Positions 17,302-60,161 of a stretch of 64,000 nt of DNA are shown here, piece by piece. The notes beneath the pieces were generated by a model that saw nothing but the letters and a program-made list of their open reading frames with translations, had not been told where the DNA came from and did no database searches. Made by a program: the position numbers and the translations under genes. Origin of the DNA: an uncultured Planctomycetia bacterium (GTDB lineage: Bacteria > Omnitrophota > Gorgyraeia > Duberdicusellales > 4484-171); the NCBI GenBank assembly GCA_964489445.1, contig CAZAYU010000001.1:375968-439967 (forward strand), in the 5' to 3' direction. Positions within the stretch are counted from its first letter, which is position 1. Every line of letters starts with the position of its first letter.

Positions 17302-18541
17302 TTAATCATAATCAAAGCATGTAGCTCCACAAAAATTTGATTCATTGCTACTATTGTCCTGATTCCACAACGTCCAATCATTACCTGTTTTGGATACCTT
17401 ACAAAAACAATCAAATCCTCCAGGACCGCCAACTGCAGATAATACACAAAAGTCATGTTCGCCCATATTTGTTGTTTTTGTGCCTGTGATCCTTATAGTA
17501 TTAGAATATTCTGTAGTCGTAAACGAAGATGCTCCACCAAAATCTTTCCAACCTCCACCATCATGATATTTGAAATTAGTATCAACACTATCATAATAAA
17601 TACTACCTGCGCTGCCAGTAGGAGCGCTGGCTTGCGGTTCAAGGTTCAATGTGCCTTCACCGGCCGCTTATTTCAAGTGTCGCTTTCGGATCATCTGTGT
17701 TAATCCCTACCCTCCCATCACTCGTTCCGGTATCTTTTATTCTCATGGTTTCTGCTGAATTCTTTGTGAATAATATTATGTCGGAAGCCTCATCGTTGGG
17801 AGAACTCTTTATATACAGATTTTTATCGTTATGGTGAGTCCAAATTCCACCCTTAAACACGCCTCCTGGACCCCAAAGCCCCAGCCCACAATTAGATGTA
17901 CCATCATCCTCTATACGTATTGCTACAGCATCACTACCATTGCTTGTTCCTTTAATGTGCAGCAACATTTGTGGATCCGTTGTCCCAATGCCGACATTGC
18001 CCTGGTCTGCTCCAGAAGCACCTGTCTGCATATAAATTGGATACTGTCTACCTGTTCCAGACTGCTCTCCTGTATTTAAAATAATCCCGCCTCCCTTAAA
18101 ATTAGTAATCTGTAAATCATAAGGCACAGTGCCTGTATCAGCAACCCAAACCCCGGCTAACTGGCTTCCGTCATTTATATCCATTTCATCGCTAACAGTA
18201 AAACCATAGCAATTACTACCAGTTTGCTTTAAATCGCCAAAAGATAGGTACCCATTGCCCATTGCTATCTGCAAGCGAATGTCAGCACTACCTGGCGCTA
18301 CCCCATCTGAAATCTCTGCTCCCCATTCAGGCATAGGCGTCTCAACATATTCATCACCAATTGCCATTCTTCTTGATCGCAATTCATTATAAATCCCATA
18401 AGGCGCAGGATAATAGGTAATAATTGTAATCTTTTCTTCAGGGATGGTTGTTTCGGCAAAGGAAGACAGAGAAAACATTACTGACAGTAAAAATACGCTT
18501 ACTGAAAAATAAACAATATTCTTTCGAAGAAATAATTTCAT
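17302..18541 (-). pseudogene. Disrupted member of the secreted Gly-rich 'TTIPEERITIITYYPAPYG' paralog family (two ORFs, 17657-18541 and 17302-17649)
   Basis: The upstream ORF ends ...ATLEISGR at a TGA (17657-17659). The downstream ORF, frame-shifted by 7 nt, continues the alignment to the paralog at 18563-20062 (NLEPQASAPTGSAGSIYYD vs ESDVNPGDAGDLYYD). The downstream ORF starts on TTG. Confidence 0.6.
17950..18470. repeat. About 500 bp direct repeat (>90% nt identity) shared by the 5' halves of the tandem paralogs; the partner copy is at about 19470-19970
   Basis: Example: 18231-18290 vs 19751-19800 are near-identical, and 18330-18410 vs 19843-19925 are about 97% identical. Confidence 0.8.
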
Positions 18542-18562
18542 AACTTATCCTCCTTTTTACAA

Positions 18563-20062
18563 TTATCGATAACCGATAATATATATAGATCCAAAAGCAT
18601 TTTTTGTAGTTGAATTTCCTGTCCGTTCAACATACACCTTTTTTCCTGTGGTAACCGGTAACCAGAAATGGTCCGAATTTGTTACCCACGCACTATTGTC
18701 GTATAGCTTATAAAACATATAATTTGCATATTTTTTTGATCCCTCTTTGGTGTAAATCTTTAAAGTCACATTGCCACTACCCAAAGTTCCGCCAATTGAG
18801 GTGTATGCATAAAACAATACCTCCTTAGCATTGGCCGGAACATAAGAGCTGAAACTCTTGACAAAAGAAGAACTAGCGGTAAGTATCGGAAGAACTCCTA
18901 ACAATTTTTTTCCTATGGGAGTCCATGATTTATCCCCTCCAAAATCATTCCAGCTCGTTCCATCGTGATACCGAAATCTATCAGAATCAATGTCATAATA
19001 AAGATCGCCGGCATCACCAGGATTAACGTCTGATTCTGCTTTGGGAGTATAACGTGCCTTTCCATCGAGATAAATGTTTCCTTTAAAATAACCAGCCCAA
19101 TAATTATCCGTATAATCTTTATAACTTAACATGGCGACAGTATTAGGTATCGATGAGCCTATGATTGTCGTTGATTCCATATGGGTTGCAAGTCCAGCAT
19201 TACCTTTAATGTCGTTGACCACCCCAAAAAGACCAAGAGCATGTTCACTTCCTGTGAAACCTCCAACTGCTAAAGCTCCCCGGGTAATTTTATCTGTTGC
19301 GGTATTTGTGTAGGCAACAATACCCGACACTCCACCATCTTTTTTTATCTTAAACTCATTAATTTTCACGCCCATACCTACCGGATAATCACTTCCAAAA
19401 GGAGAAGGAACATCAAACAATCCAGTGCTAATAGTTACATCAATATCGTTTGAATTTTCGATTATCTGCAGCGTTCCTTTAGGATCAACTGTTCCAATAC
19501 CTACATTGCCAGCTGGTAAGGCTCCTGAATCTGTGTATGTTTGCATACAAATTGGATATGGTCTACCTGTTGCAGAATCCTCTTTCGTATTTAAAATAAT
19601 CCCGCCACCAATAAAATTAGTAATCTGTAGATCATAAGGCACAGTACCTGTATCAGCAACCCAAAACCCGGCTAACTGGCTTCCGGCATCTATGTCCATT
19701 GCATCGCTAACAACAAAACCATAACAATTACTACCAGTTTGCTGTAAGTCGCCAAAAGATAGATACCCATTGCCCATTGCTATCTGCAAGCGAATATCAG
19801 CTGTGCTCCCAGAACCATCTGGAATATCCGTTCCCCATTGAGGCATAGGCGTCTCAACATATTCATCGCCAATTGCCATTCTTCTTGATCGCAATTCATT
19901 GTAAATCCCATAAGGCGCAGGATAATAGGTAATAATTGTAATTCTTTCTTCAGGAACACTTGATGCGGCAAAAGAAAAAACAGGAAGTATCAAGAAAGAT
20001 AAAAACATTAATGCTAAACAAAGGCTTAATCTTTTACTCATTATTTTTCCCTCTTTTCTCAT
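18563..20062 (-). CDS. Secreted Gly-rich repeat protein, paralog family member (putative surface fibre/adhesin)
   Basis: Signal peptide (...PVFSFA), then SSVPEERITIITYYPAPYGIYNELRSRRMAIGD, GNVGIGTVDPKG repeats, and the C-terminal LYYDIDSDRFRYHDGTSWNDFGG motif. The true start is probably the internal MSKRL. Confidence 0.7.
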   Translation of the reverse strand: MRKEGKIMSKRLSLCLALMFLSFLILPVFSFAASSVPEERITIITYYPAPYGIYNELRSRRMAIGDEYVETPMPQWGTDIPDGSGSTADIRLQIAMGNGYLSFGDLQQTGSNCYGFVVSDAMDIDAGSQLAGFWVADTGTVPYDLQITNFIGGGIILNTKEDSATGRPYPICMQTYTDSGALPAGNVGIGTVDPKGTLQIIENSNDIDVTISTGLFDVPSPFGSDYPVGMGVKINEFKIKKDGGVSGIVAYTNTATDKITRGALAVGGFTGSEHALGLFGVVNDIKGNAGLATHMESTTIIGSSIPNTVAMLSYKDYTDNYWAGYFKGNIYLDGKARYTPKAESDVNPGDAGDLYYDIDSDRFRYHDGTSWNDFGGDKSWTPIGKKLLGVLPILTASSSFVKSFSSYVPANAKEVLFYAYTSIGGTLGSGNVTLKIYTKEGSKKYANYMFYKLYDNSAWVTNSDHFWLPVTTGKKVYVERTGNSTTKNAFGSIYIIGYR

Positions 20063-21284: not shown

Positions 21285-22277
21285 TTACTCAAATACATAT
21301 ACCCGTTCACCTTGCCCCTCATTACAAACAGCAAAAACCCTCATCGTAGAAATATTCTTGGCCAGAAATTTTCTAATTCCTTCCAGGCCCATAACCGAAA
21401 AAGCAGTAGCTAGACTATCGGTAGTAGTACAATTTTTGCTAATTACACTCACACTCAAAAGACTATTATCTACAGGGTACCCAGTGAGAGGATTAATCAA
21501 ATGGGAATAACGTTTATCCTGATAATCAAAAAATTGTTCATAATTTCCCGAAGTAGACACTGACTCATTCAGTAGCTGCTGATTTTCAATTATTCCTGAT
21601 AATTTTTGTGGATCTCTAACGCCGATATTCCATGTTTTCCCTCTGTTAGTCCCTAGGCAATAGATATCTCCTCCGGCGTTAATCATTGCGTTCTCGACAC
21701 CCTGCTCTTTTAATTTCAAAACTGCTTTATCTACCATATACCCTTTGGCTATCGCGTTTAAATCAACCTTGAGCCCTTGCTTGCTAATGAGTACTGTTTT
21801 ATTCTTTTTATCTATTTTAAGATAGTCCATACCACATTTCTCAGCTAACTTATTAATTTTTTGCTTATCCGGAAATTGCTGAACTCCTTCTTTAATTAAT
21901 TTTTTCCAAAAATCATAAAGCACACCATAGCTTACATCAAACGCACCGCCAGTTAAGCTGGTTAACTGTCTGGACAAGCCTAAAATTTCAATCATCTCAT
22001 CAGAGACTTTCATCGGAATATTATAAGTGTTATTTAATCGAGAAATTTCCGAATCCGGATCGTAAAGATTAAAAATCTTATTCAATCGCTGAAACTCTTT
22101 ATACACAATACCGGCGGCTGGTTTATCAGAAGAAATAACTTCTAAATATGTGCCAGAAACAACGAAAGTATTTTTATGCACTGGAATCGAGCAAGAAGAC
22201 AAAAAGAATAAAACACAAAATAACGCGCCTATTCTTTTAATTTTTTTCACATACATAAAATATCCCATATTATTCAA
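21285..22277 (-). CDS. apbE: FAD:protein FMN transferase ApbE (lipoprotein)
   Basis: Lipobox (LSSCS). ApbE family similarity (FDVSYGVL..., AIAKGYMVDKA). Confidence 0.85.
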   Translation of the reverse strand: MNNMGYFMYVKKIKRIGALFCVLFFLSSCSIPVHKNTFVVSGTYLEVISSDKPAAGIVYKEFQRLNKIFNLYDPDSEISRLNNTYNIPMKVSDEMIEILGLSRQLTSLTGGAFDVSYGVLYDFWKKLIKEGVQQFPDKQKINKLAEKCGMDYLKIDKKNKTVLISKQGLKVDLNAIAKGYMVDKAVLKLKEQGVENAMINAGGDIYCLGTNRGKTWNIGVRDPQKLSGIIENQQLLNESVSTSGNYEQFFDYQDKRYSHLINPLTGYPVDNSLLSVSVISKNCTTTDSLATAFSVMGLEGIRKFLAKNISTMRVFAVCNEGQGERVYVFE

Positions 22278-23085
22278 GTCTTATTTCTGCGCATTTTTTT
22301 AATATTATCTGTCGAGAATCCGCCACATGAACACCTCTGGTTTTGCCCACAGTCAATACTACCGCATTACTAATAGTAAGCTTTCCCGTGGAAGTTATAT
22401 ATAATCCATTAGGCCTAATATTCTTGCTGTGATCCAAAACTACATCTGTATCAATTATCATATCTTTACCTATGTCCGGACAGTCAGGATCAGCAAAATC
22501 AGCTAACCCATCACAATCATTATCTTTTTTATCCAAACAAAGACACCCTTCTTCAAAGTGTAATCCTGCTGCATCCACACGGCAAGCTGTTAACTCGCTA
22601 ATACCGGAAGTTGAAGGGTGTTTAGATGGGGTAGAAGAATTGCAATCACAATAAGAATTACTACTTCCTGGGTTCACCAATGGATTATCACCATCACAAT
22701 CATTACATTGGTCAACATAGCCGTCTTTATCATTATCTGCGCTTTGTCCAGATTGAGGACAACCTGCAGGTGTGCATGTAGAGCAACAAGTCTGATAACA
22801 AGTCTGGTAGCAAGTCTGGTAGCAAGTCTGGCAATTTTCACCTTTAGCATCACAATCACAATCATAAGGATCACAATCATAAGGATTACAATCATAAGGA
22901 TTACAATCATAAGGGGTATCTGTGCAGCTAGTATCTACCCCCGTATCTGCATAGTAAACATTACCGACACATTTCCCATTCTCCCCAGCATTACACTGTT
23001 TAGTACGAGTATCACAAGCATACATCGCCGAGACAAAAAACAACATTAGCGCAATTGTAATAAAAATAATTTTTCCGTTTTTCAT
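22270..23085 (-). CDS. Secreted Cys/Asp-rich tandem-repeat protein (calcium-binding-like)
   Basis: Signal peptide, then (PYDC[ND])x4 and (QTCY)x4 repeats and DxDxDG-like motifs. Overlaps the apbE start by 8 nt. Confidence 0.65.
   Translation of the reverse strand: MKNGKIIFITIALMLFFVSAMYACDTRTKQCNAGENGKCVGNVYYADTGVDTSCTDTPYDCNPYDCNPYDCDPYDCDCDAKGENCQTCYQTCYQTCYQTCCSTCTPAGCPQSGQSADNDKDGYVDQCNDCDGDNPLVNPGSSNSYCDCNSSTPSKHPSTSGISELTACRVDAAGLHFEEGCLCLDKKDNDCDGLADFADPDCPDIGKDMIIDTDVVLDHSKNIRPNGLYITSTGKLTISNAVVLTVGKTRGVHVADSRQIILKKCAEIRLE
22787..22834. repeat. 12-nt tandem repeat, about 4 units (caagtctggtag), in-frame, encoding QTCY
   Basis: Read directly from the sequence. Confidence 0.85.
22857..22916. 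repeat. 15-nt tandem repeat, 4 units ([ct]acaatcataaggat), in-frame, encoding PYDC[ND]
   Basis: Read directly from the sequence. Confidence 0.85.
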
Positions 23086-23142: not shown

Positions 23143-24627
23143 TTATTTTATTAAAATTTCAACTTTTTCTTTGCCTTCTTCTGAATCTTCTAAGGCAATC
23201 CCCACAACTTGAGTAAATATTGTAATTTTATTAACATCTCCCCGCATTGCATAACCTAATTTAGAAGAAGTAACCAAAATATCTCCTTTTTTAACCGGGG
23301 GAACTATTTTGCAATCTACTATTCCATCTAAAGCTAACGGTTTAAGATCCTCACCTTCCTGTTCACCTAAAAGTAAAGATGGTTTTTCTGAGATAACTCC
23401 GGCAACTACTGCTGAATAAGGTTCACTATTTTTTTTAAATTCATTATCATCATTTCCGCCTACCACCACGACATCTCCTGGCTCACATTCCTCACATTTT
23501 ATATTTTCAGCAATATCTCCCTTAATTGTGGAACAAAAAAGAGTGCCGTCTAATCGAATGTCACCCTTAATATCTAATTCTTTCTCAGGATTAGATATTC
23601 CAATACCTACATTACCCTCTTTAGAAATCCATACCCTATCCTTGTGAGATGTTTGGAACCGAATAGGCTCGGCGGCGGCTGTCTTCATTACTAAACCTTT
23701 ACCACCACTAGCAGCAGCTGCAAAGATAGCACCAATATAAGAACCTGAACGGGAAAACAACACCCCAGAATTTTCGCCACCCACAGAATCAATAAATATG
23801 CCTGTATCTTTATCGCTTTTAATATGTAATTTTTGCAGCGGGTTAATAGTCCCGATTCCCACATTACCACCTTTTATAATTGATATACCCTCTCCGTTAT
23901 TTACATCGTCGGCGCTATGGCCAATGCAAATTAAACCGTCTAAATAATCAGAATAGTTAATAGACACCGACTCAGAAAAAACTTTACCTACCGCTAAACC
24001 AACAAAACCACCACTAGGTAATTGAGGTGCAAAAAAAGATGCAATATTTTGAGAATAAGGTTTATTACTTTCCACAGATAACAATTGCCTGGGATCAGTC
24101 GTCCCAATGCCTACATTTCCAAGCTCAATACCGTCACTACCCCAGTTTTGCATGCAAATCGGCTTGCTGTCTCCTTCTAAATATAAAGGGCCCGTACTTG
24201 CTACAGCCATTCCAGCCTCACCCCCGCCATTAATAGAACTCTGCCACCAAACACCCCCACCTGTACTAGCGGTACTAATACTTTGTGTATTGCCAATATG
24301 TAGCCCAACTCCAGTGTCAGAATTCATAGGATTACTATATCCGCCTAAAGAAACATACCTGTTAAGAGCAGAGACCTGCAAACGAATATCCGGTGTTATG
24401 CTTGAAGCTCCGACATCCCATCCAAAAAGATTAGGACTATCAATATAATTGTCTCCAATAGCTACCCTTCTTGCCCGCAATTCATTATACACCCCATAAG
24501 GAGCCGGATAATAAGTGATAATTGTAATTCTTTCTTCAGGGATGGTTGTTTGGGCAAGCACCGGAATAATCCAAATTATTAACATGCTAAACACAAAACT
24601 TAAAATTAATACCCGTTTTTCTTTCAT
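23143..24627 (-). CDS. Secreted Gly-rich repeat protein, paralog family member
   Basis: Signal peptide (...IPVLA), then QTTIPEERITIITYYPAPYGVYNELRARRVAIGD and three GNVGIG(T/I)xxP repeats. The C-terminal region is divergent. Confidence 0.7.
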   Translation of the reverse strand: MKEKRVLILSFVFSMLIIWIIPVLAQTTIPEERITIITYYPAPYGVYNELRARRVAIGDNYIDSPNLFGWDVGASSITPDIRLQVSALNRYVSLGGYSNPMNSDTGVGLHIGNTQSISTASTGGGVWWQSSINGGGEAGMAVASTGPLYLEGDSKPICMQNWGSDGIELGNVGIGTTDPRQLLSVESNKPYSQNIASFFAPQLPSGGFVGLAVGKVFSESVSINYSDYLDGLICIGHSADDVNNGEGISIIKGGNVGIGTINPLQKLHIKSDKDTGIFIDSVGGENSGVLFSRSGSYIGAIFAAAASGGKGLVMKTAAAEPIRFQTSHKDRVWISKEGNVGIGISNPEKELDIKGDIRLDGTLFCSTIKGDIAENIKCEECEPGDVVVVGGNDDNEFKKNSEPYSAVVAGVISEKPSLLLGEQEGEDLKPLALDGIVDCKIVPPVKKGDILVTSSKLGYAMRGDVNKITIFTQVVGIALEDSEEGKEKVEILIK

Positions 24628-24641
24628 ACTCCCCCCGTTAT

Positions 24642-24681
24642 TATTTCCCGCCGAAGGCGGATCCGCCTTCGGCGGGAAATA
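24642..24681. promoter_or_regulatory. 40-bp perfect GC-rich palindrome with nested sub-hairpins, 14 nt upstream of the SD/ATG of the 23143-24627 gene and downstream of queF
   Basis: tatttcccgccgaaggcggatccgccttcggcgggaaata. No U-tract follows on either strand. Confidence 0.5.
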
Positions 24682-24853
24682 GTTAAATGGTTAATCTTTA
24701 TTGTGCTTAGGGATTACTAAGGATTATGGATTATGTGATAAGAAATAGAAACCAAAAACATTTCGGTTTGGCTTAATTTTTCTCTTCTTAGCCTCATCCT
24801 TCGTCCCTCTTCCATCATCTATCGTCCGTCTTTCATCATCTGTCTTTACTGCT

Positions 24854-52877: not shown

Positions 52878-54125
52878 TTATTTTAGTTGATCAATAAAAA
52901 TATTTTTATCTATTTTAATCCCTTGTTTTTCAATAATATTTAAAAATTTTGGCACACCATTCGCTTTAAATTTTCCTTTCACTTTGAAATCATCTGTTGT
53001 TTCGTCTATCTCGTAACGAAAAATATCATGTAAAACTATTCTGTTTTCTTTTACTCCCTCTACTTCGGTAATATGAGTTATCTTCCTTGTACCATCAACA
53101 AATTGCTCCTGCTGAACGATCAAATCTAAACCAGATGAAATCTGCTCGCGAATAGCCCAAGAAGGAAGGTTAAGTCCTGCGTACAACGCCATTGTTTCTA
53201 ACCGCACAATACTATCAAACGGGCTAGAAGCATGAATTACCGCTAAGGACCCTCTGTGCCCACTGTTTAAGGCCTGCAAAAAATCCATCGCTTCTTCACC
53301 TCTTATTTCTCCGAGAATAATTCTTGTCGGTCGCATTCTTAATGTATTCCGAAATAAATCACGTGTAGAAAACGCTCCTTTTCCTTCGATGTTCGCCGGT
53401 TTAGTCAATAACCTTACCAAATGTTTCTGACGTAAACTCAATTCTAATGCATCTTCGATAGTAATAATCCTTTCCTGAGGATCGATGTATGAGGAAAGCA
53501 CTTCCAACGTAGTTGTTTTACCACTTCCAGTTGCCCCCGAAAACAAAATATTCATTTTAGCCTTAACGCAAGCAACTAAAAATTCTCCCATTCTCGCATC
53601 AACAGTCCCCATTTCAACTAGATTATCAACATTCTTAATGGAATTTAAAAACTTCCGGATTGTCACAACCGCATCCTTGGCAGAAAGAGGTGGCAATATG
53701 ACATTAACCCGCGCTCCATCACCTAAAGAAAAATCAGCAAACGGTGAACTTTCATCTACCCTACGTCCGGACGGAGAAATCATTTTTTCAATAATATATT
53801 TTAAATGAGCCGCATCATCAAATTTAACTTCTGAAGCTATCTTTTTCCCTTCTTTCTCTACATATATCGTAAATGGACCGTTAACCATAATTTCCGTAAT
53901 CTTTTCGTCGTCGATTAAACTCTGTAAAGGCCCCAATCCCAGAAAATCGGAAGAAACGGAATGAATTATTTCTTTTTTTGTCTTATCGTTAATTCCTAAA
54001 TGTTTATTTTGCTCTAAAAACAAGGTAACCTTTTCACTGATAAAATCAACAGTTAATTCTTCCTGATTACCAACCCAAGAAATGATCGCATGACGAAGCT
54101 TGTTTTTGATATTTTTTAATTCCAT
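52878..54125 (-). CDS. CpaF/TadA-like secretion-family ATPase (orphan)
   Basis: Walker A (FSGATGSGKTTTLEVL...ITIEDALEL). Type II/IV secretion NTPase fold. Confidence 0.7.
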   Translation of the reverse strand: MELKNIKNKLRHAIISWVGNQEELTVDFISEKVTLFLEQNKHLGINDKTKKEIIHSVSSDFLGLGPLQSLIDDEKITEIMVNGPFTIYVEKEGKKIASEVKFDDAAHLKYIIEKMISPSGRRVDESSPFADFSLGDGARVNVILPPLSAKDAVVTIRKFLNSIKNVDNLVEMGTVDARMGEFLVACVKAKMNILFSGATGSGKTTTLEVLSSYIDPQERIITIEDALELSLRQKHLVRLLTKPANIEGKGAFSTRDLFRNTLRMRPTRIILGEIRGEEAMDFLQALNSGHRGSLAVIHASSPFDSIVRLETMALYAGLNLPSWAIREQISSGLDLIVQQEQFVDGTRKITHITEVEGVKENRIVLHDIFRYEIDETTDDFKVKGKFKANGVPKFLNIIEKQGIKIDKNIFIDQLK

Positions 54126-59064: not shown

Positions 59065-59421
59065 TTATTCTTCTTGCAGCTTTCTGTTCATCAATTCTTC
59101 TTTAAGGCTCTCTTCCAATTTCTTATTCAGCATTTGAAGTTTTAAGTTGCCTTCATTGATGGTTTTTATTTTAGTATTTAGTTTTATTTCTTCTGTTTTG
59201 AAGTTGTCTATTTTTTCTTTTAACTCATCAATATTTTTTTGAAGTTTGCTACTATTGCTTTTTAAATCTTCAATATTTTTCCCCAGACTTATGCTTGTGG
59301 CTAACTCTTCCCTATAAGTATTAGCTAGAGCGTTCATTTTTACCAGTATCGACACACCAGCAATAACCAGGACCACCACCAGCCCTACTAATAAACTTAC
59401 AATAATCGGGTTATTTTTCAT
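59065..59421 (-). CDS. Single-TM coiled-coil protein
   Basis: N-terminal hydrophobic helix, then heptad-rich K/E/L sequence. Confidence 0.5.
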   Translation of the reverse strand: MKNNPIIVSLLVGLVVVLVIAGVSILVKMNALANTYREELATSISLGKNIEDLKSNSSKLQKNIDELKEKIDNFKTEEIKLNTKIKTINEGNLKLQMLNKKLEESLKEELMNRKLQEE

Positions 59422-59474: not shown

Positions 59475-60161
59475 TTATTTTAATTCTTCTTCAATAAATT
59501 CTTCTTCAATAAATTCTTCCTCAATTGCCTCTCCTCCGTCGCTTTTGTCTATTATTTCATCTTCATAAATAATTTCTTCATCCCGAGCAATCTTAGGCAA
59601 GACAACTATCTCTACTCTCCGATTAAACTGTCTGCCTTCTTCTGTATCATTGGAATCAATCGGCTGATATTGACCATAACCTATTGCCTTTAACCTTAAA
59701 GGAGAAACACCTTTGCCCTCTAAATAATAAAGAACACTCAAAGCTCGTTGTGTTGAAAGCTCCCAATTTGTCTTCCAACGTGAATACCTTATCGGTTCAT
59801 TATCAGTATGCCCTTCAATGCCTATGTCATTTTCATAAGCTTCATTAACTAAAACCTCTACTACTTTATTTAAAGCAGAATAACAACCTGTTTTAAGGTC
59901 AGCTTTCCCTGAGTCAAACAACACTTCAGCAACAAAAGTAATTACTAATCCTTTCTCGGCTATTTCCAGCCTTATCTGTTTACCTTCTATCTCTTTAGAT
60001 AAGGATTTATTCAATGAATCACGAGCATCTTTAAGCTCGTCTAGGCGACTTTTTAGCACCTCTATTCTTTCAATGTCCGAACGCCTTCCTTTTTGTAAAA
60101 TCAAGGTGCATCCGTTTAATACAAAAATAGCAAAAACGAGCACAAAAATTATTTTTCTCAT
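59475..60161 (-). CDS. OmpA/MotB-like peptidoglycan-binding lipoprotein with coiled-coil and acidic C-terminal repeat
   Basis: Lipobox (LNGC). OmpA-like core (GHTDNEPI...NWELSTQRALSV...NRRVEIVV). C-terminal EEFIEEEFIEEE repeat. Confidence 0.75.
   Translation of the reverse strand: MRKIIFVLVFAIFVLNGCTLILQKGRRSDIERIEVLKSRLDELKDARDSLNKSLSKEIEGKQIRLEIAEKGLVITFVAEVLFDSGKADLKTGCYSALNKVVEVLVNEAYENDIGIEGHTDNEPIRYSRWKTNWELSTQRALSVLYYLEGKGVSPLRLKAIGYGQYQPIDSNDTEEGRQFNRRVEIVVLPKIARDEEIIYEDEIIDKSDGGEAIEEEFIEEEFIEEELK
59484..59525. repeat. 15-nt tandem repeat (ttcttcttcaataaa), about 2.8 units, encoding the EEFIE repeat at the OmpA-like C-terminus
   Basis: Read directly from the sequence. Confidence 0.8.

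What the first reader, a model, noticed from the sequence alone, without database searches (positions are those of the whole stretch)
22270..23085. Secreted Cys/Asp-rich protein built from in-frame tandem DNA repeats, translationally coupled to ApbE
The gene contains (caagtctggtag)x4 (encoding QTCY) and ([ct]acaatcataaggat)x4 (encoding PYDC[ND]) plus DxDxDG-type acidic motifs (DKDGYVDQCNDCDGDNP, DNDCDGLADFADPDCPD). These acidic motifs resemble thrombospondin-type-3 / calcium-binding repeats. Repeat units of 12 and 15 nt allow in-frame length variation by slippage. The stop overlaps the start of an ApbE flavin-transferase lipoprotein by 8 nt, so the two are likely co-transcribed. This is an unusual pairing. 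ApbE normally flavinylates extracytoplasmic redox proteins, and I saw no canonical flavinylation motif (D..[ST]GAT) in this protein.
Basis: partly seen in the sequence, partly recalled or inferred. Interest (0 to 1): 0.55.

Follow-up and report, generated by a model that had tools for sequence, protein, structure and literature searches.

The report
Secreted cysteine-ladder partner of surface fibres
The gene encodes a real secreted, cysteine- and aspartate-rich protein built partly from tandem repeats, but its conserved partner is a phage-tail-fibre-like surface fibre gene next door, not the flavin transferase ApbE, which lies beside it only in this genome.

Summary
Window 22270..23085 (minus strand) is a 271-aa secreted protein. 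It contains a 15-nt x4 repeat (PYDCN units), a 12-nt x3.9 repeat (TCYQ units) and two Asp/Cys motifs.

The ApbE reading does not hold. ApbE is adjacent in 1 of 11 family contexts, and no flavinylation motif occurs anywhere in the window.

In 10 of 11 contexts the neighbour is a roughly 450-560-aa secreted fibre protein. It has an N-terminal TYYPxPxGxY motif, beta-helix repeats matching Bdellovibrio MAT fibre Bd2133, and a conserved C-terminal domain. Two contexts lie inside type IV pilus or type II secretion clusters.

The protein has four parts: a signal peptide, a hypervariable Cys-rich N-terminal half, a conserved core with a teneurin-C-rich-like calcium site (8 of 9 ligand side chains conserved), and a predicted three-rung beta-solenoid.

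The two repeat arrays form a module also found in uncultured phage tail and adhesin-like proteins. The unit numbers of its two arms co-vary from 3 to 11, which suggests a length-adjustable disulfide ladder.

My best reading is a calcium- and disulfide-stabilised accessory subunit of a predator-type surface fibre. No experiment supports this yet.

The parts
22270..23085 (-). CDS of the 271-aa secreted Cys/Asp-rich protein (stop codon at 22270-22272)
   Evidence: ORF list. AGGAG lies 6 nt before the ATG. Homologs of 47-59% identity occur in Omnitrophica-type MAGs.
23017..23085 (-). Sec-type signal peptide, residues 1-23 (cleavage inferred after SAMYA)
   Evidence: Read directly from the sequence. 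Hydrophobic N-termini are present throughout the family.
22858..22917 (-). Arm A of the Cys module: (P-Y-D-C-N) x4, with Cys 61, 66, 71 and 76 spaced 5 residues apart; encoded by the 15-nt repeat
   Evidence: TRF finds 22855-22914, period 15, 4.0 copies, 97% match. The same arm occurs in P0001-3, P0006, P0007, P0015 and in viral and metagenome ORFs.
22774..22830 (-). Arm B of the Cys module: (T-C-Y-Q) x3 plus TCCSTC, with Cys 88, 92, 96, 100 and 104 spaced 4 residues apart; encoded by the 12-nt repeat
   Evidence: TRF finds 22785-22831, period 12, 3.9 copies, 94% match. Unit number co-varies with arm A across 35 proteins.
22642..22737 (-). Acidic/Cys motif 1, residues 117-148 (DNDKDGYVDQCNDCDGDNPLVNPGSSNSYCDC)
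   Evidence: D119, D121, C127, D129 and C130 are invariant and D117 and G122 are conserved in at least 90% of 21 family members. There is no PDB or Pfam match.
22474..22554 (-). Acidic/Cys motif 2, residues 178-204 (EEGCLCLDKKDNDCDGLADFADPDCPD); teneurin-C-rich-like putative calcium site
   Evidence: Profile match to 7plp teneurin-4 C-rich domain, E 0.007. The ligand residues listed in PMC9058538 align with invariant D185, D188, N189, D190, D192, D196, D199 and D201.
22273..22473 (-). C-terminal beta-rich domain, residues 205-271; predicted short (about 3-rung) beta-solenoid
23143..24627 (-). Conserved neighbour: 494-aa secreted fibre-like protein with an N-terminal ITIITYYPAPYGVY motif, GNVGIGTxxP repeats and a C-terminal DIAEN...GDILVTSSKLGYAM domain
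   Evidence: PDB match to Bdellovibrio MAT fibre Bd2133 (8ond), E 1.4e-5. PHROGs tail-fibre families, E 1.6e-12. Orthologs lie adjacent to family members in 10 of 11 contexts.
21285..22277 (-). ApbE flavin transferase lipoprotein, immediately downstream. Probably co-transcribed, but judged not to be functionally part of the feature.
   Evidence: Pfam ApbE, E 2e-78. It is not adjacent in any other family context.
17302..20062 (-). Fibre paralogs that share the N-terminal domain but have other C-termini: 18563..20062, and 17657..18541 plus 17302..17649 (apparently one gene split by a frame change)
   Evidence: Alignment A2, PHROGs tail-fibre hits, sequence at the junction.

Best explanation
The gene encodes a Sec-exported extracellular protein that works with the phage-tail-fibre-like (Bdellovibrio MAT-like) surface fibre encoded next to it.

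**Proposed mechanism**
- The conserved C-terminal half (residues about 105-271) comprises two Asp/Cys motifs and a three-rung beta-solenoid. At least the second motif binds calcium in the manner of the teneurin C-rich domain. This half is proposed to be the docking part that binds the fibre, most likely at or near the fibre's conserved C-terminal domain.
- The hypervariable Cys-rich N-terminal half is proposed to be the exposed part.
- In this ortholog the N-terminal half is built from two tandem arrays, (CNPYx)n and (TCYx)n. These are proposed to pair one-to-one through disulfides into a hairpin ladder. The number of rungs changes by gain or loss of one unit in both arms.
- The closest functional analogy is a phage tail-fibre gene followed by its accessory or adhesin gene.
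- The neighbouring ApbE is a housekeeping gene that happens to lie downstream in a compact, one-strand genome.

**Shown:** gene, repeats, signal peptide, family, conserved neighbour, conserved calcium-ligand pattern, co-variation of the two arms.

**Inferred:** physical binding to the fibre, position on the fibre, calcium binding, the disulfide ladder.
For: **Conserved neighbourhood**
- 10 of 11 distinct family members with known context have a fibre gene directly adjacent. These are the window, L001 and L002, L003-6, L009, L015, the P0015 context with a Peptidase_S74 fibre, and L018, L019/20 and L021.
- Adjacency survives an inversion: the pair is co-directional in some loci and convergent in others.
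- It persists down to about 35% identity between family members.
- In 9 of the 10 cases the adjacent fibre carries the same C-terminal domain. The two other fibre paralogs in the window have a different C-terminus and no such neighbour.

**Fibre identity**
- PDB hits to Bd2133 and another Bdellovibrio MAT protein.
- PHROGs tail-fibre families.

**Type IV pilus or secretion context**
- L015 carries pilM/N, pilO, a secretin and a T2SSE ATPase directly downstream.
- T2SSF lies upstream in the P0015 context.

**Family core versus variable N-terminus**

**Calcium site**
-.

**Structure**
-.

**Two-arm module**
- Cys counts in the 5-spaced and 4-spaced arms correlate across 35 proteins (Spearman 0.81).
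- They also correlate across 12 flank-defined homology groups (0.68, p 0.015).
- Changes within groups are coordinated: P0001 has 4/5 and P0002 has 5/6 at 82% identity; L205 has 3/3 and L233 has 8/8.
- The module also occurs in a phage structural gene cluster.
Against: - There is no direct evidence of an interaction. No multimer model could be run.
- In three lineages the two genes are convergent, so they are not co-transcribed.
- One family member (P0009) has no fibre within its 2-kb contig.
- The teneurin match is a 24-residue stretch with E 0.007, and only one of the three teneurin disulfides is conserved.
- There is no sequence similarity to known tail-fibre assembly or adhesin proteins (PHROGs gave no hit).
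- The arm co-variation is not fully corrected for shared ancestry and rests on simple Cys-spacing counts.
- The full-length AF2 model gives the repeat region pLDDT below 50.
Confidence: 0.5

Rival explanations
1. The protein is the cell-proximal anchor of the fibres. It would be the unidentified surface element that the conserved N-terminal fibre domain binds, possibly at or near the type IV pilus machinery, rather than a distal or tip partner.
For: - The Bdellovibrio MAT paper states that the conserved N-terminal domain presumably binds an unknown surface element, and raises interplay with type IV pili (PMC10769870).
- Two family contexts sit in pilus or secretion clusters.
- The window has one copy of this gene for three fibres that share the N-terminal domain.
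- Several distant members have a Cys right after an AxA-like site, which could be a lipobox.
Against: - Adjacency tracks the fibre with one particular C-terminal domain, not the shared N-terminal domain.
- The window protein and its close orthologs lack a canonical lipobox or any membrane segment.
- A hypervariable N-terminal half is more typical of an exposed surface than of an anchor.
Confidence: 0.15
2. The protein is a stand-alone secreted metal-binding protein, such as a MopE-like or metallothionein-like binder of calcium, copper or another metal. Its position next to the fibre gene would reflect only shared envelope expression.
For: - Weak hit to the Pfam 'putative metal-binding motif' PF11617 (13-15 bits).
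- High Cys and Asp content.
- The 25-aa DNDCDG motif recurs many times in about 100 large unrelated secreted proteins.
Against: - The PF11617 score is below its cut-off of 27 bits.
- The conserved neighbourhood with the fibre across deep divergence (10 of 11 contexts) is not expected for an independent metal binder.
- The Cys-rich half is hypervariable in length and sequence, and is absent in some members. That argues against a conserved metal-cluster site.
Confidence: 0.15
3. One reading: the protein is functionally coupled to ApbE, either as a non-canonical flavinylation substrate or as a redox partner.
For: The two genes are co-directional, and the stop and start overlap or abut. No terminator is predicted between them. 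Both products are extracytoplasmic.
Against: - ApbE is adjacent in 1 of 11 contexts.
- There is no Dxx[ST]GA[ST] motif in this protein or anywhere in the window.
- The only loose [STG]GA[TS] matches are a Walker A motif and non-conserved fibre positions.
- No FMN-binding domain was found by Pfam or NCBIfam.
- Every flanking gene is a housekeeping gene on the same strand.
- Many Omnitrophota encode Rnf (PMC10066038). RnfG and RnfD are established ApbE clients (established knowledge).
Confidence: 0.04
4. The repeats are evolutionarily neutral low-complexity filler produced by slippage. They would have no defined structure, and the arm co-variation would be an artefact of shared ancestry.
For: - The repeat region has pLDDT below 50.
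- Some family members lack the arrays.
- The DNA units are 94-97% identical, which indicates recent amplification.
Against: - The same two-arm arrangement recurs in at least 12 unrelated protein backgrounds, in both orders.
- Cys, Pro and aromatic positions are invariant within the units.
- Unit numbers match from 3 to 11, including coordinated changes within homology groups.
Confidence: 0.12

Closest known systems
Teneurin C-rich calcium-binding domain (PDB 7plp; PMC9058538)
   Same: Over about 24 residues, C-x-D-x-x-D-N-D-x-D-G-x-x-D-x-x-D-P-D-C is shared. Of the nine calcium-ligand side chains, the seven Asp and the Asn are conserved, and so is the C838-C857 disulfide pair. According to that paper, two of the calcium sites are coordinated as in thrombospondin type 3 repeats.
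   Different: The C-terminal conotoxin-like part and two of the three disulfides are missing. E835 is not aligned. There are extra Cys at positions 181 and 191. The protein is bacterial and the surrounding architecture is different. The match is short (E 0.007).
Pfam PF11617 'putative metal-binding motif' (MopE-type DNDCDG repeats of Myxococcota and Planctomycetota secreted proteins)
   Same: The same short Asp/Cys motif. The profile search found more than 100 large proteins carrying it up to 21 times.
   Different: The scores of 13-15 bits are below the cut-off of 27. This protein has one copy of each half-motif, separated by about 30 residues, and they are fused to a beta-solenoid and a Cys-ladder module.
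Phage tail-fibre accessory genes encoded just downstream of the fibre gene (T4 gp38 adhesin; lambda, P2 and Mu Tfa-type assembly proteins). This comparison rests on established knowledge.
   Same: A small gene lies next to a fibre gene. It has a conserved docking part and a hypervariable part. The Cys module is also present in uncultured phage tail-region proteins.
   Different: There is no sequence similarity (PHROGs gave no hit). The protein has a signal peptide and is cellular rather than viral. Orientation is not always co-directional. The interaction is untested.
Bdellovibrio MAT (mosaic adhesive trimer) fibres (PMC10769870). This comparison concerns the neighbouring gene.
   Same: A signal peptide, a conserved N-terminal domain, GNxGIGTxxPxxKL beta-helix repeats that match Bd2133, exchangeable C-terminal tips, several paralogs per genome, and a host lineage suspected of predation or parasitism.
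   Different: Homology of the N-terminal domain to the Bdellovibrio one was not tested. The proteins are much shorter (294-559 aa against about 1000). No partner protein of this kind is reported for the Bdellovibrio fibres.
Tapirins and other short beta-helix adhesins
   Different: Z no higher than 4.9 with poor rmsd, and only about 60-70 residues aligned. This is not evidence of homology.

Membership tests
ApbE substrate (flavinylated extracytoplasmic protein) | Flavinylation motif Dxx[ST]GA[ST] | tested here: not met
   No [DS]xx[ST]GA[TS] motif occurs in any ORF of 60 aa or more in the window.
ApbE substrate (flavinylated extracytoplasmic protein) | FMN-binding or another known ApbE-client domain | tested here: not met
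   Pfam and NCBIfam give no domain hit.
ApbE substrate (flavinylated extracytoplasmic protein) | Conserved gene neighbourhood with apbE | tested here: not met
   ApbE is adjacent in 1 of 11 contexts.
Thrombospondin type 3 repeat (Pfam TSP_3) | Match to the family model | tested here: not met
   No TSP_3 hit even at E up to 10 on the isolated acidic region. The DxDxDGxxDxC pattern is visible only by eye.
Thrombospondin type 3 repeat (Pfam TSP_3) | Calcium binding by the Asp ladder | not testable with these tools
   This needs calcium-dependent thermal shift assays, ITC or a structure.
PF11617 putative metal-binding (MopE) motif | Score at or above the gathering cut-off (27 bits) | tested here: not met
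   13.2 bits for the window protein and 14.6 bits for P0015.
Teneurin C-rich domain | The nine calcium-ligand side chains | tested here: met
   D840, D843, N844, D845, D847, D851, D854 and D856 align with D185, D188, N189, D190, D192, D196, D199 and D201. All eight are invariant in the six close homologs. E835 is not aligned.
Teneurin C-rich domain | Three disulfides in the pattern 1-3, 2-5, 4-6 | tested here: not met
   Only the C838/C857 equivalents (C183 and C202) are present. C852 aligns with F197 and C858 with P203, and the C-terminal part is absent.
MAT-like fibre (applies to the neighbouring gene 23143..24627) | Signal peptide followed by a conserved N-terminal domain | tested here: inconclusive
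   The N-terminal domain is conserved among the window paralogs and among fibres in other loci. Homology to the Bdellovibrio N-terminal domain could not be tested because no sequence was available.
MAT-like fibre (applies to the neighbouring gene 23143..24627) | Beta-helix repeat region related to solved MAT fibres | tested here: met
   8ond (Bd2133), E 1.4e-5; 8on4, E 0.078. PHROGs tail-fibre families, E 1.6e-12.
MAT-like fibre (applies to the neighbouring gene 23143..24627) | Trimeric fibre on the cell surface | not testable with these tools
   This needs microscopy or biochemistry.
Phage tail-fibre assembly or adhesin proteins (Tfa / gp38 type) | Sequence membership in a known family | tested here: not met
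   PHROGs gives no family at E up to 1. tblastn against 50,697 phage records gives no match.
Phage tail-fibre assembly or adhesin proteins (Tfa / gp38 type) | Gene immediately adjacent to the fibre gene | tested here: met
   10 of 11 contexts. In 7 the gene is directly downstream on the same strand, and in 3 the genes are convergent.
Slippage-variable (contingency-type) repeat gene | Repeat copy number differs between close relatives | tested here: met
   P0001, P0002 and P0003 are 81-85% identical, and their differences concentrate as indels in the two arrays, which have 3-5 units.
Slippage-variable (contingency-type) repeat gene | Polymorphism within a population or strain | tested here: inconclusive
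   Members of the same 90%-identity clusters differ only in the called start site. There are only 2-4 members per cluster, and no reads were available. The units are 12 and 15 nt, so any change stays in frame and gives no on/off switching.

The most novel reading that the evidence does not exclude
The two tandem arrays form a previously undescribed, length-tunable intramolecular disulfide ladder. One (C-N-P-Y/H-x) unit would pair with one (T-C-Y-x) unit, and rungs would be added or removed by coordinated repeat gain or loss. The module is shared by uncultured phage tail proteins, large adhesin-like proteins and this family. The family itself would be the missing partner (tip adaptor or anchor) of MAT-like attachment fibres in Omnitrophota-type ultrasmall, possibly predatory, bacteria.
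Probability: 0.3. Interest if true: 0.7.

Novelty: new variant of a known kind. Interest (0 to 1): 0.5.

Why it matters
Omnitrophota are uncultured, ultrasmall and suspected of living on other cells, and how they attach is unknown. A conserved gene pair consisting of a Bdellovibrio-MAT-like fibre and a secreted calcium- and disulfide-rich partner, sometimes inside pilus gene clusters, gives a concrete and testable candidate for an attachment apparatus. It also offers a possible answer to a question left open for Bdellovibrio fibres, namely what they bind to or assemble with.

Separately, a repeat module whose two arms keep equal unit numbers from 3 to 11 rungs across unrelated proteins and phages would be a simple natural example of a length-adjustable, disulfide-stapled spacer. 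That would interest people who study phage receptor-binding proteins and people who engineer proteins.

The negative result also matters. The ApbE adjacency should not be used to propose a new flavinylation client.

Tried and rejected
- **Family libraries.** Pfam, NCBIfam and PHROGs gave nothing on the full protein. Isolated segments gave only a sub-threshold PF11617 hit.
- **Full-length AF2.** With 6 sequences the model was unusable, pLDDT 48. It was repeated on residues 100-271 with 27 sequences.
- **Homolog searches.** The profile search with the wide alignment and the search with the module alignment both added almost nothing, because of candidate caps.
- **Motif 1.** It has no match in the PDB.
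- **Fibre C-terminal domain.** There is no PDB match. A Peptidase_G2 autochaperone hit appears in only 2 of 8 members, best E 0.034, and is left as inconclusive.
- **Deposited phages.** tblastn with the window protein and with P0006 found no match.
- **Literature.** Searches for Omnitrophota with ApbE, and for cysteine or disulfide ladders in tail fibres, found nothing relevant.
- **RNA.** Rfam and tRNA scans of the window were empty.
- **Rejected ideas.** Lipoprotein status for the window protein, because M-Y-A-C is not a canonical lipobox. An ApbE target among the fibre paralogs, because the only loose match (QTGAS in 17657..18541) lacks the Asp and is not conserved in the paralogs.
Full report
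**1. Observation**

The ORF at 22270..23085 (minus strand) encodes 271 aa. It has a strong AGGAG ribosome-binding site 6 nt before the ATG.

Tandem Repeats Finder reports two arrays:
- a 12-nt unit x3.9 at 22785-22831, 94% match;
- a 15-nt unit x4.0 at 22855-22914, 97% match.

On the coding strand these give TCYQ and PYDC[ND] units. Only six arrays in the 64-kb window reach score 50, and two of them are in this gene.

The downstream ORF 21285..22277 is ApbE (Pfam E 2e-78). The 8-nt overlap depends on a TTG start. ATG codons 1 nt and 13 nt after the stop are equally possible. No terminator-like site lies between the two genes.

**2. The ApbE link does not hold**

- No [DS]xx[ST]GA[TS] motif exists in any ORF of 60 aa or more in the window. 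Looser matches are a Walker A box and non-conserved fibre positions.
- All but one of the 54 ORFs of 150 aa or more are on the minus strand.
- The genes around the locus are housekeeping. They include purine biosynthesis, panB, queF, recO, ybeY, aspS, dnaE, guaA, infB and nusA. Adjacency in this genome therefore carries little information.
- In the ten other genomic contexts recovered for family members, ApbE is never adjacent.
- Many Omnitrophota encode Rnf (PMC10066038). RnfG and RnfD are standard ApbE clients (established knowledge).

**3. The family**

A first search found only five true homologs, at 47-59% identity. One of them is named as a Candidatus Omnitrophica MAG protein.

A profile search of 1.84 billion representatives gave 160 hits. 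About 25-35 share the whole core. The rest are large proteins that share only the 25-residue DNDCDG motif, up to 21 times each.

The alignment of 21 members shows two contrasting halves:
- **Conserved C-terminal half.** It reads C-x-P-P-x-C, then DxDxDG..C.DC.D.N...PG..N..CDC, then G-I-S/P-E-L/T-T-x-C...F..GC.C.DG.DNDCDG..D..DP.CP, then a beta-rich tail.
- **Hypervariable N-terminal half.** It is Cys-rich and ranges from about 30 to 250 residues.

**4. Structure and motifs**

The full-length AF2 model was poor (pLDDT 48). Residues 100-271, modelled with a 27-sequence alignment, gave pLDDT 84.5 and pTM 0.75, with eight short strands in the last 65 residues.

A PDB profile search matched residues 180-203 to the teneurin-4 C-rich domain (7plp, E 0.007). 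That crystal structure holds three calcium ions, and the ligands are listed in PMC9058538. Seven Asp ligands and the Asn ligand align with residues that are invariant in the close family. The C838-C857 disulfide equivalents are also present. The other two disulfides and the C-terminal part of the domain are absent.

The authors of that paper note that two of the calcium sites are coordinated as in thrombospondin type 3 repeats. Membership of TSP_3 or PF11617 is not met, and motif 1 has no PDB match.

**5. The conserved neighbour**

In the window, the gene directly upstream (23143..24627) encodes a 494-aa secreted protein with three recognisable parts:
- an N-terminal ITIITYYPAPYGVY motif;
- repeats of the form GNVGIGTxxPxxxL;
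- a C-terminal domain reading DIAEN...PYS..V.GVIS..P...KP.AL.G.V..K...PVKKGDILVTSSKLGYAM.

It matches PHROGs tail-fibre families (E 1.6e-12). It also matches the solved Bdellovibrio MAT fibres Bd2133 (8ond, E 1.4e-5) and 8on4.

A protein with the same N-terminal motif and the same C-terminal domain lies directly beside the family member in these loci:
- L001 and L002, convergent;
- L003-6, upstream, seen as a fragment;
- L009, convergent fragment;
- L015;
- L018, L019/20 and L021, upstream on the same strand (alignment).

P0015 follows a 453-aa Peptidase_S74 fibre. Only P0009, on a 2-kb contig, lacks a fibre neighbour. That makes 10 of 11 contexts, spanning family members down to about 35% identity.

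Two further observations bear on the role of the pair:
- In L015 the pair is followed by pilM/N, pilO, a secretin and a T2SSE ATPase. In the P0015 context it is preceded by T2SSF.
- The window has two more fibre paralogs with the same N-terminal domain but different C-termini, and neither has such a neighbour.

The MAT paper says that the conserved N-terminal domain presumably binds an unidentified surface element, and mentions possible interplay with type IV pili (PMC10769870).

**6. The repeat region is a two-arm module with matched arms**

Two otherwise unrelated proteins, P0006 and P0007, share only the (CNPYx)n...(TCYx)n stretch with the window protein. P0006 lies in a phage structural cluster that runs from a capsid gene to a tail collar gene.

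Of 261 distinct ORFs recovered, 27 also carry at least two CNP[YH] units. With a looser unit definition, and adding the family members, the comparison set is 35 distinct proteins.

These proteins are diverse: glycine-rich phage tail-type proteins, proteins with Ig-like repeats and large adhesin-like proteins. The two arms occur in both orders, separated by linkers of 8-112 residues.

The number of Cys spaced 5 apart and the number spaced 4 apart co-vary from 3 to 11:
- Spearman 0.81 across the 35 proteins;
- Spearman 0.68, p 0.015, after collapsing to 12 homology groups defined by the flanks only.

Changes within groups are coordinated. P0001 has 4/5 and P0002 has 5/6 at 82% overall identity. 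L205 has 3/3 and L233 has 8/8.

Among the three closest orthologs (81-85% identical), the differences concentrate as indels in these arrays. Members of the same 90% clusters differ only in the called start site.

The simplest reading is that the arms pair one-to-one through disulfides, forming a ladder of adjustable length. This is an inference. The local Pfam copy has no model for the module, and limited literature and phage-database searches found no description of it. One TCY-only hit carries a precomputed label, PF27846, that I could not resolve.

**7. Mechanism proposed**

I propose a Sec-exported accessory subunit of the adjacent MAT-like fibre:
- the conserved calcium- and disulfide-stabilised core, together with the beta-solenoid, docks on the fibre;
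- the variable Cys-rich half is exposed, and here it is a four-to-five-rung ladder.

I put about 0.5 on a functional partnership with the fibre. Within that, I favour a distal adaptor or adhesin role (about 0.35) over a cell-proximal anchor role (about 0.15). A stand-alone metal-binder role gets about 0.15, and the ApbE-linked role about 0.04.

**8. Novelty**

The parts are of known kinds: a calcium-binding Asp/Cys motif, a beta-solenoid, and a fibre gene with a neighbouring accessory gene. What appears not to have been described is the family itself, its conserved pairing with MAT-like fibres in an Omnitrophota-type genome, and the matched two-arm Cys module. I rate it as a new variant of a known kind, of moderate interest.

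Noticed in passing
window 24641..24678: A perfect GC-rich hairpin with an 18-bp stem (TTTCCCGCCGAAGGCGGA / TCCGCCTTCGGCGGGAAA). It is unique in the window. As RNA it folds at -39 kcal/mol, z-score -6.3. It ends about 18 nt before the fibre gene's ATG and has no U-tract. It could be a terminator for queF or a 5'-leader element of the fibre / Cys-rich / ApbE transcription unit.
   Followed up: partly
window 17302..17649 and 17657..18541 (minus strand): These two ORFs look like one fibre paralog split by a frame change near 17650-17660. The 115-aa ORF continues the homology to the C-terminal part of paralog 18563..20062, including the GxxGxxYYD...YHDGxxWxDFGG motif. It could be a pseudogene, a sequencing error or a frameshift site.
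   Followed up: partly
window 17657..20062 and 23143..24627: Three paralogous secreted fibre-like proteins share a nearly identical N-terminal segment (PEE+ITIITYYPAPYG+YNELR.RR.AIGD), with housekeeping genes (panB, apbE) between them. The N-terminal motif recurs in fibres from all related loci and has no Pfam or NCBIfam model.
   Followed up: partly
window 23143..23640 (fibre C-terminal domain); alignment A8: The conserved fibre C-terminal domain of about 130 aa has no PDB match. It has only a weak Peptidase_G2 autochaperone hit in 2 of 8 members, best E 0.034. It could be a divergent intramolecular chaperone that is cleaved off.
   Followed up: partly
window 24794..24841: A 21-nt x2.3 tandem repeat lies in the queF-to-fibre intergenic region, just upstream of the hairpin.
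   Followed up: no
window 52878..54125: A lone T2SSE-family ATPase (Pfam E 2.8e-54) sits between a class II tRNA synthetase gene and ispG, with no other pilus or secretion genes nearby.
   Followed up: no
whole window: 53 of the 54 ORFs of 150 aa or more are on the minus strand. GC skew is uniformly negative and GC content is about 36%. There are no tRNA genes or Rfam matches in 64 kb.
   Followed up: no
L001 3788-4489 and 7137-7589: DsbD_TM-type thiol-disulfide membrane protein genes flank the ortholog P0001. One lies directly upstream, in divergent orientation. This may be relevant to folding a protein this rich in Cys.
   Followed up: no
L072, L030, L058, L036 and other GVMAG viral contigs: Long runs of TCYx units, without the CNPY arm, occur in giant-virus MAG contigs, with up to 5 pattern matches per locus. 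I did not examine whether they are coding in that frame.
   Followed up: no
window 59196..59280 and 59482..59525: Two more tandem arrays: 42 nt x2.0 and 15 nt x2.9. The second lies inside ORF 59475..60161.
   Followed up: no
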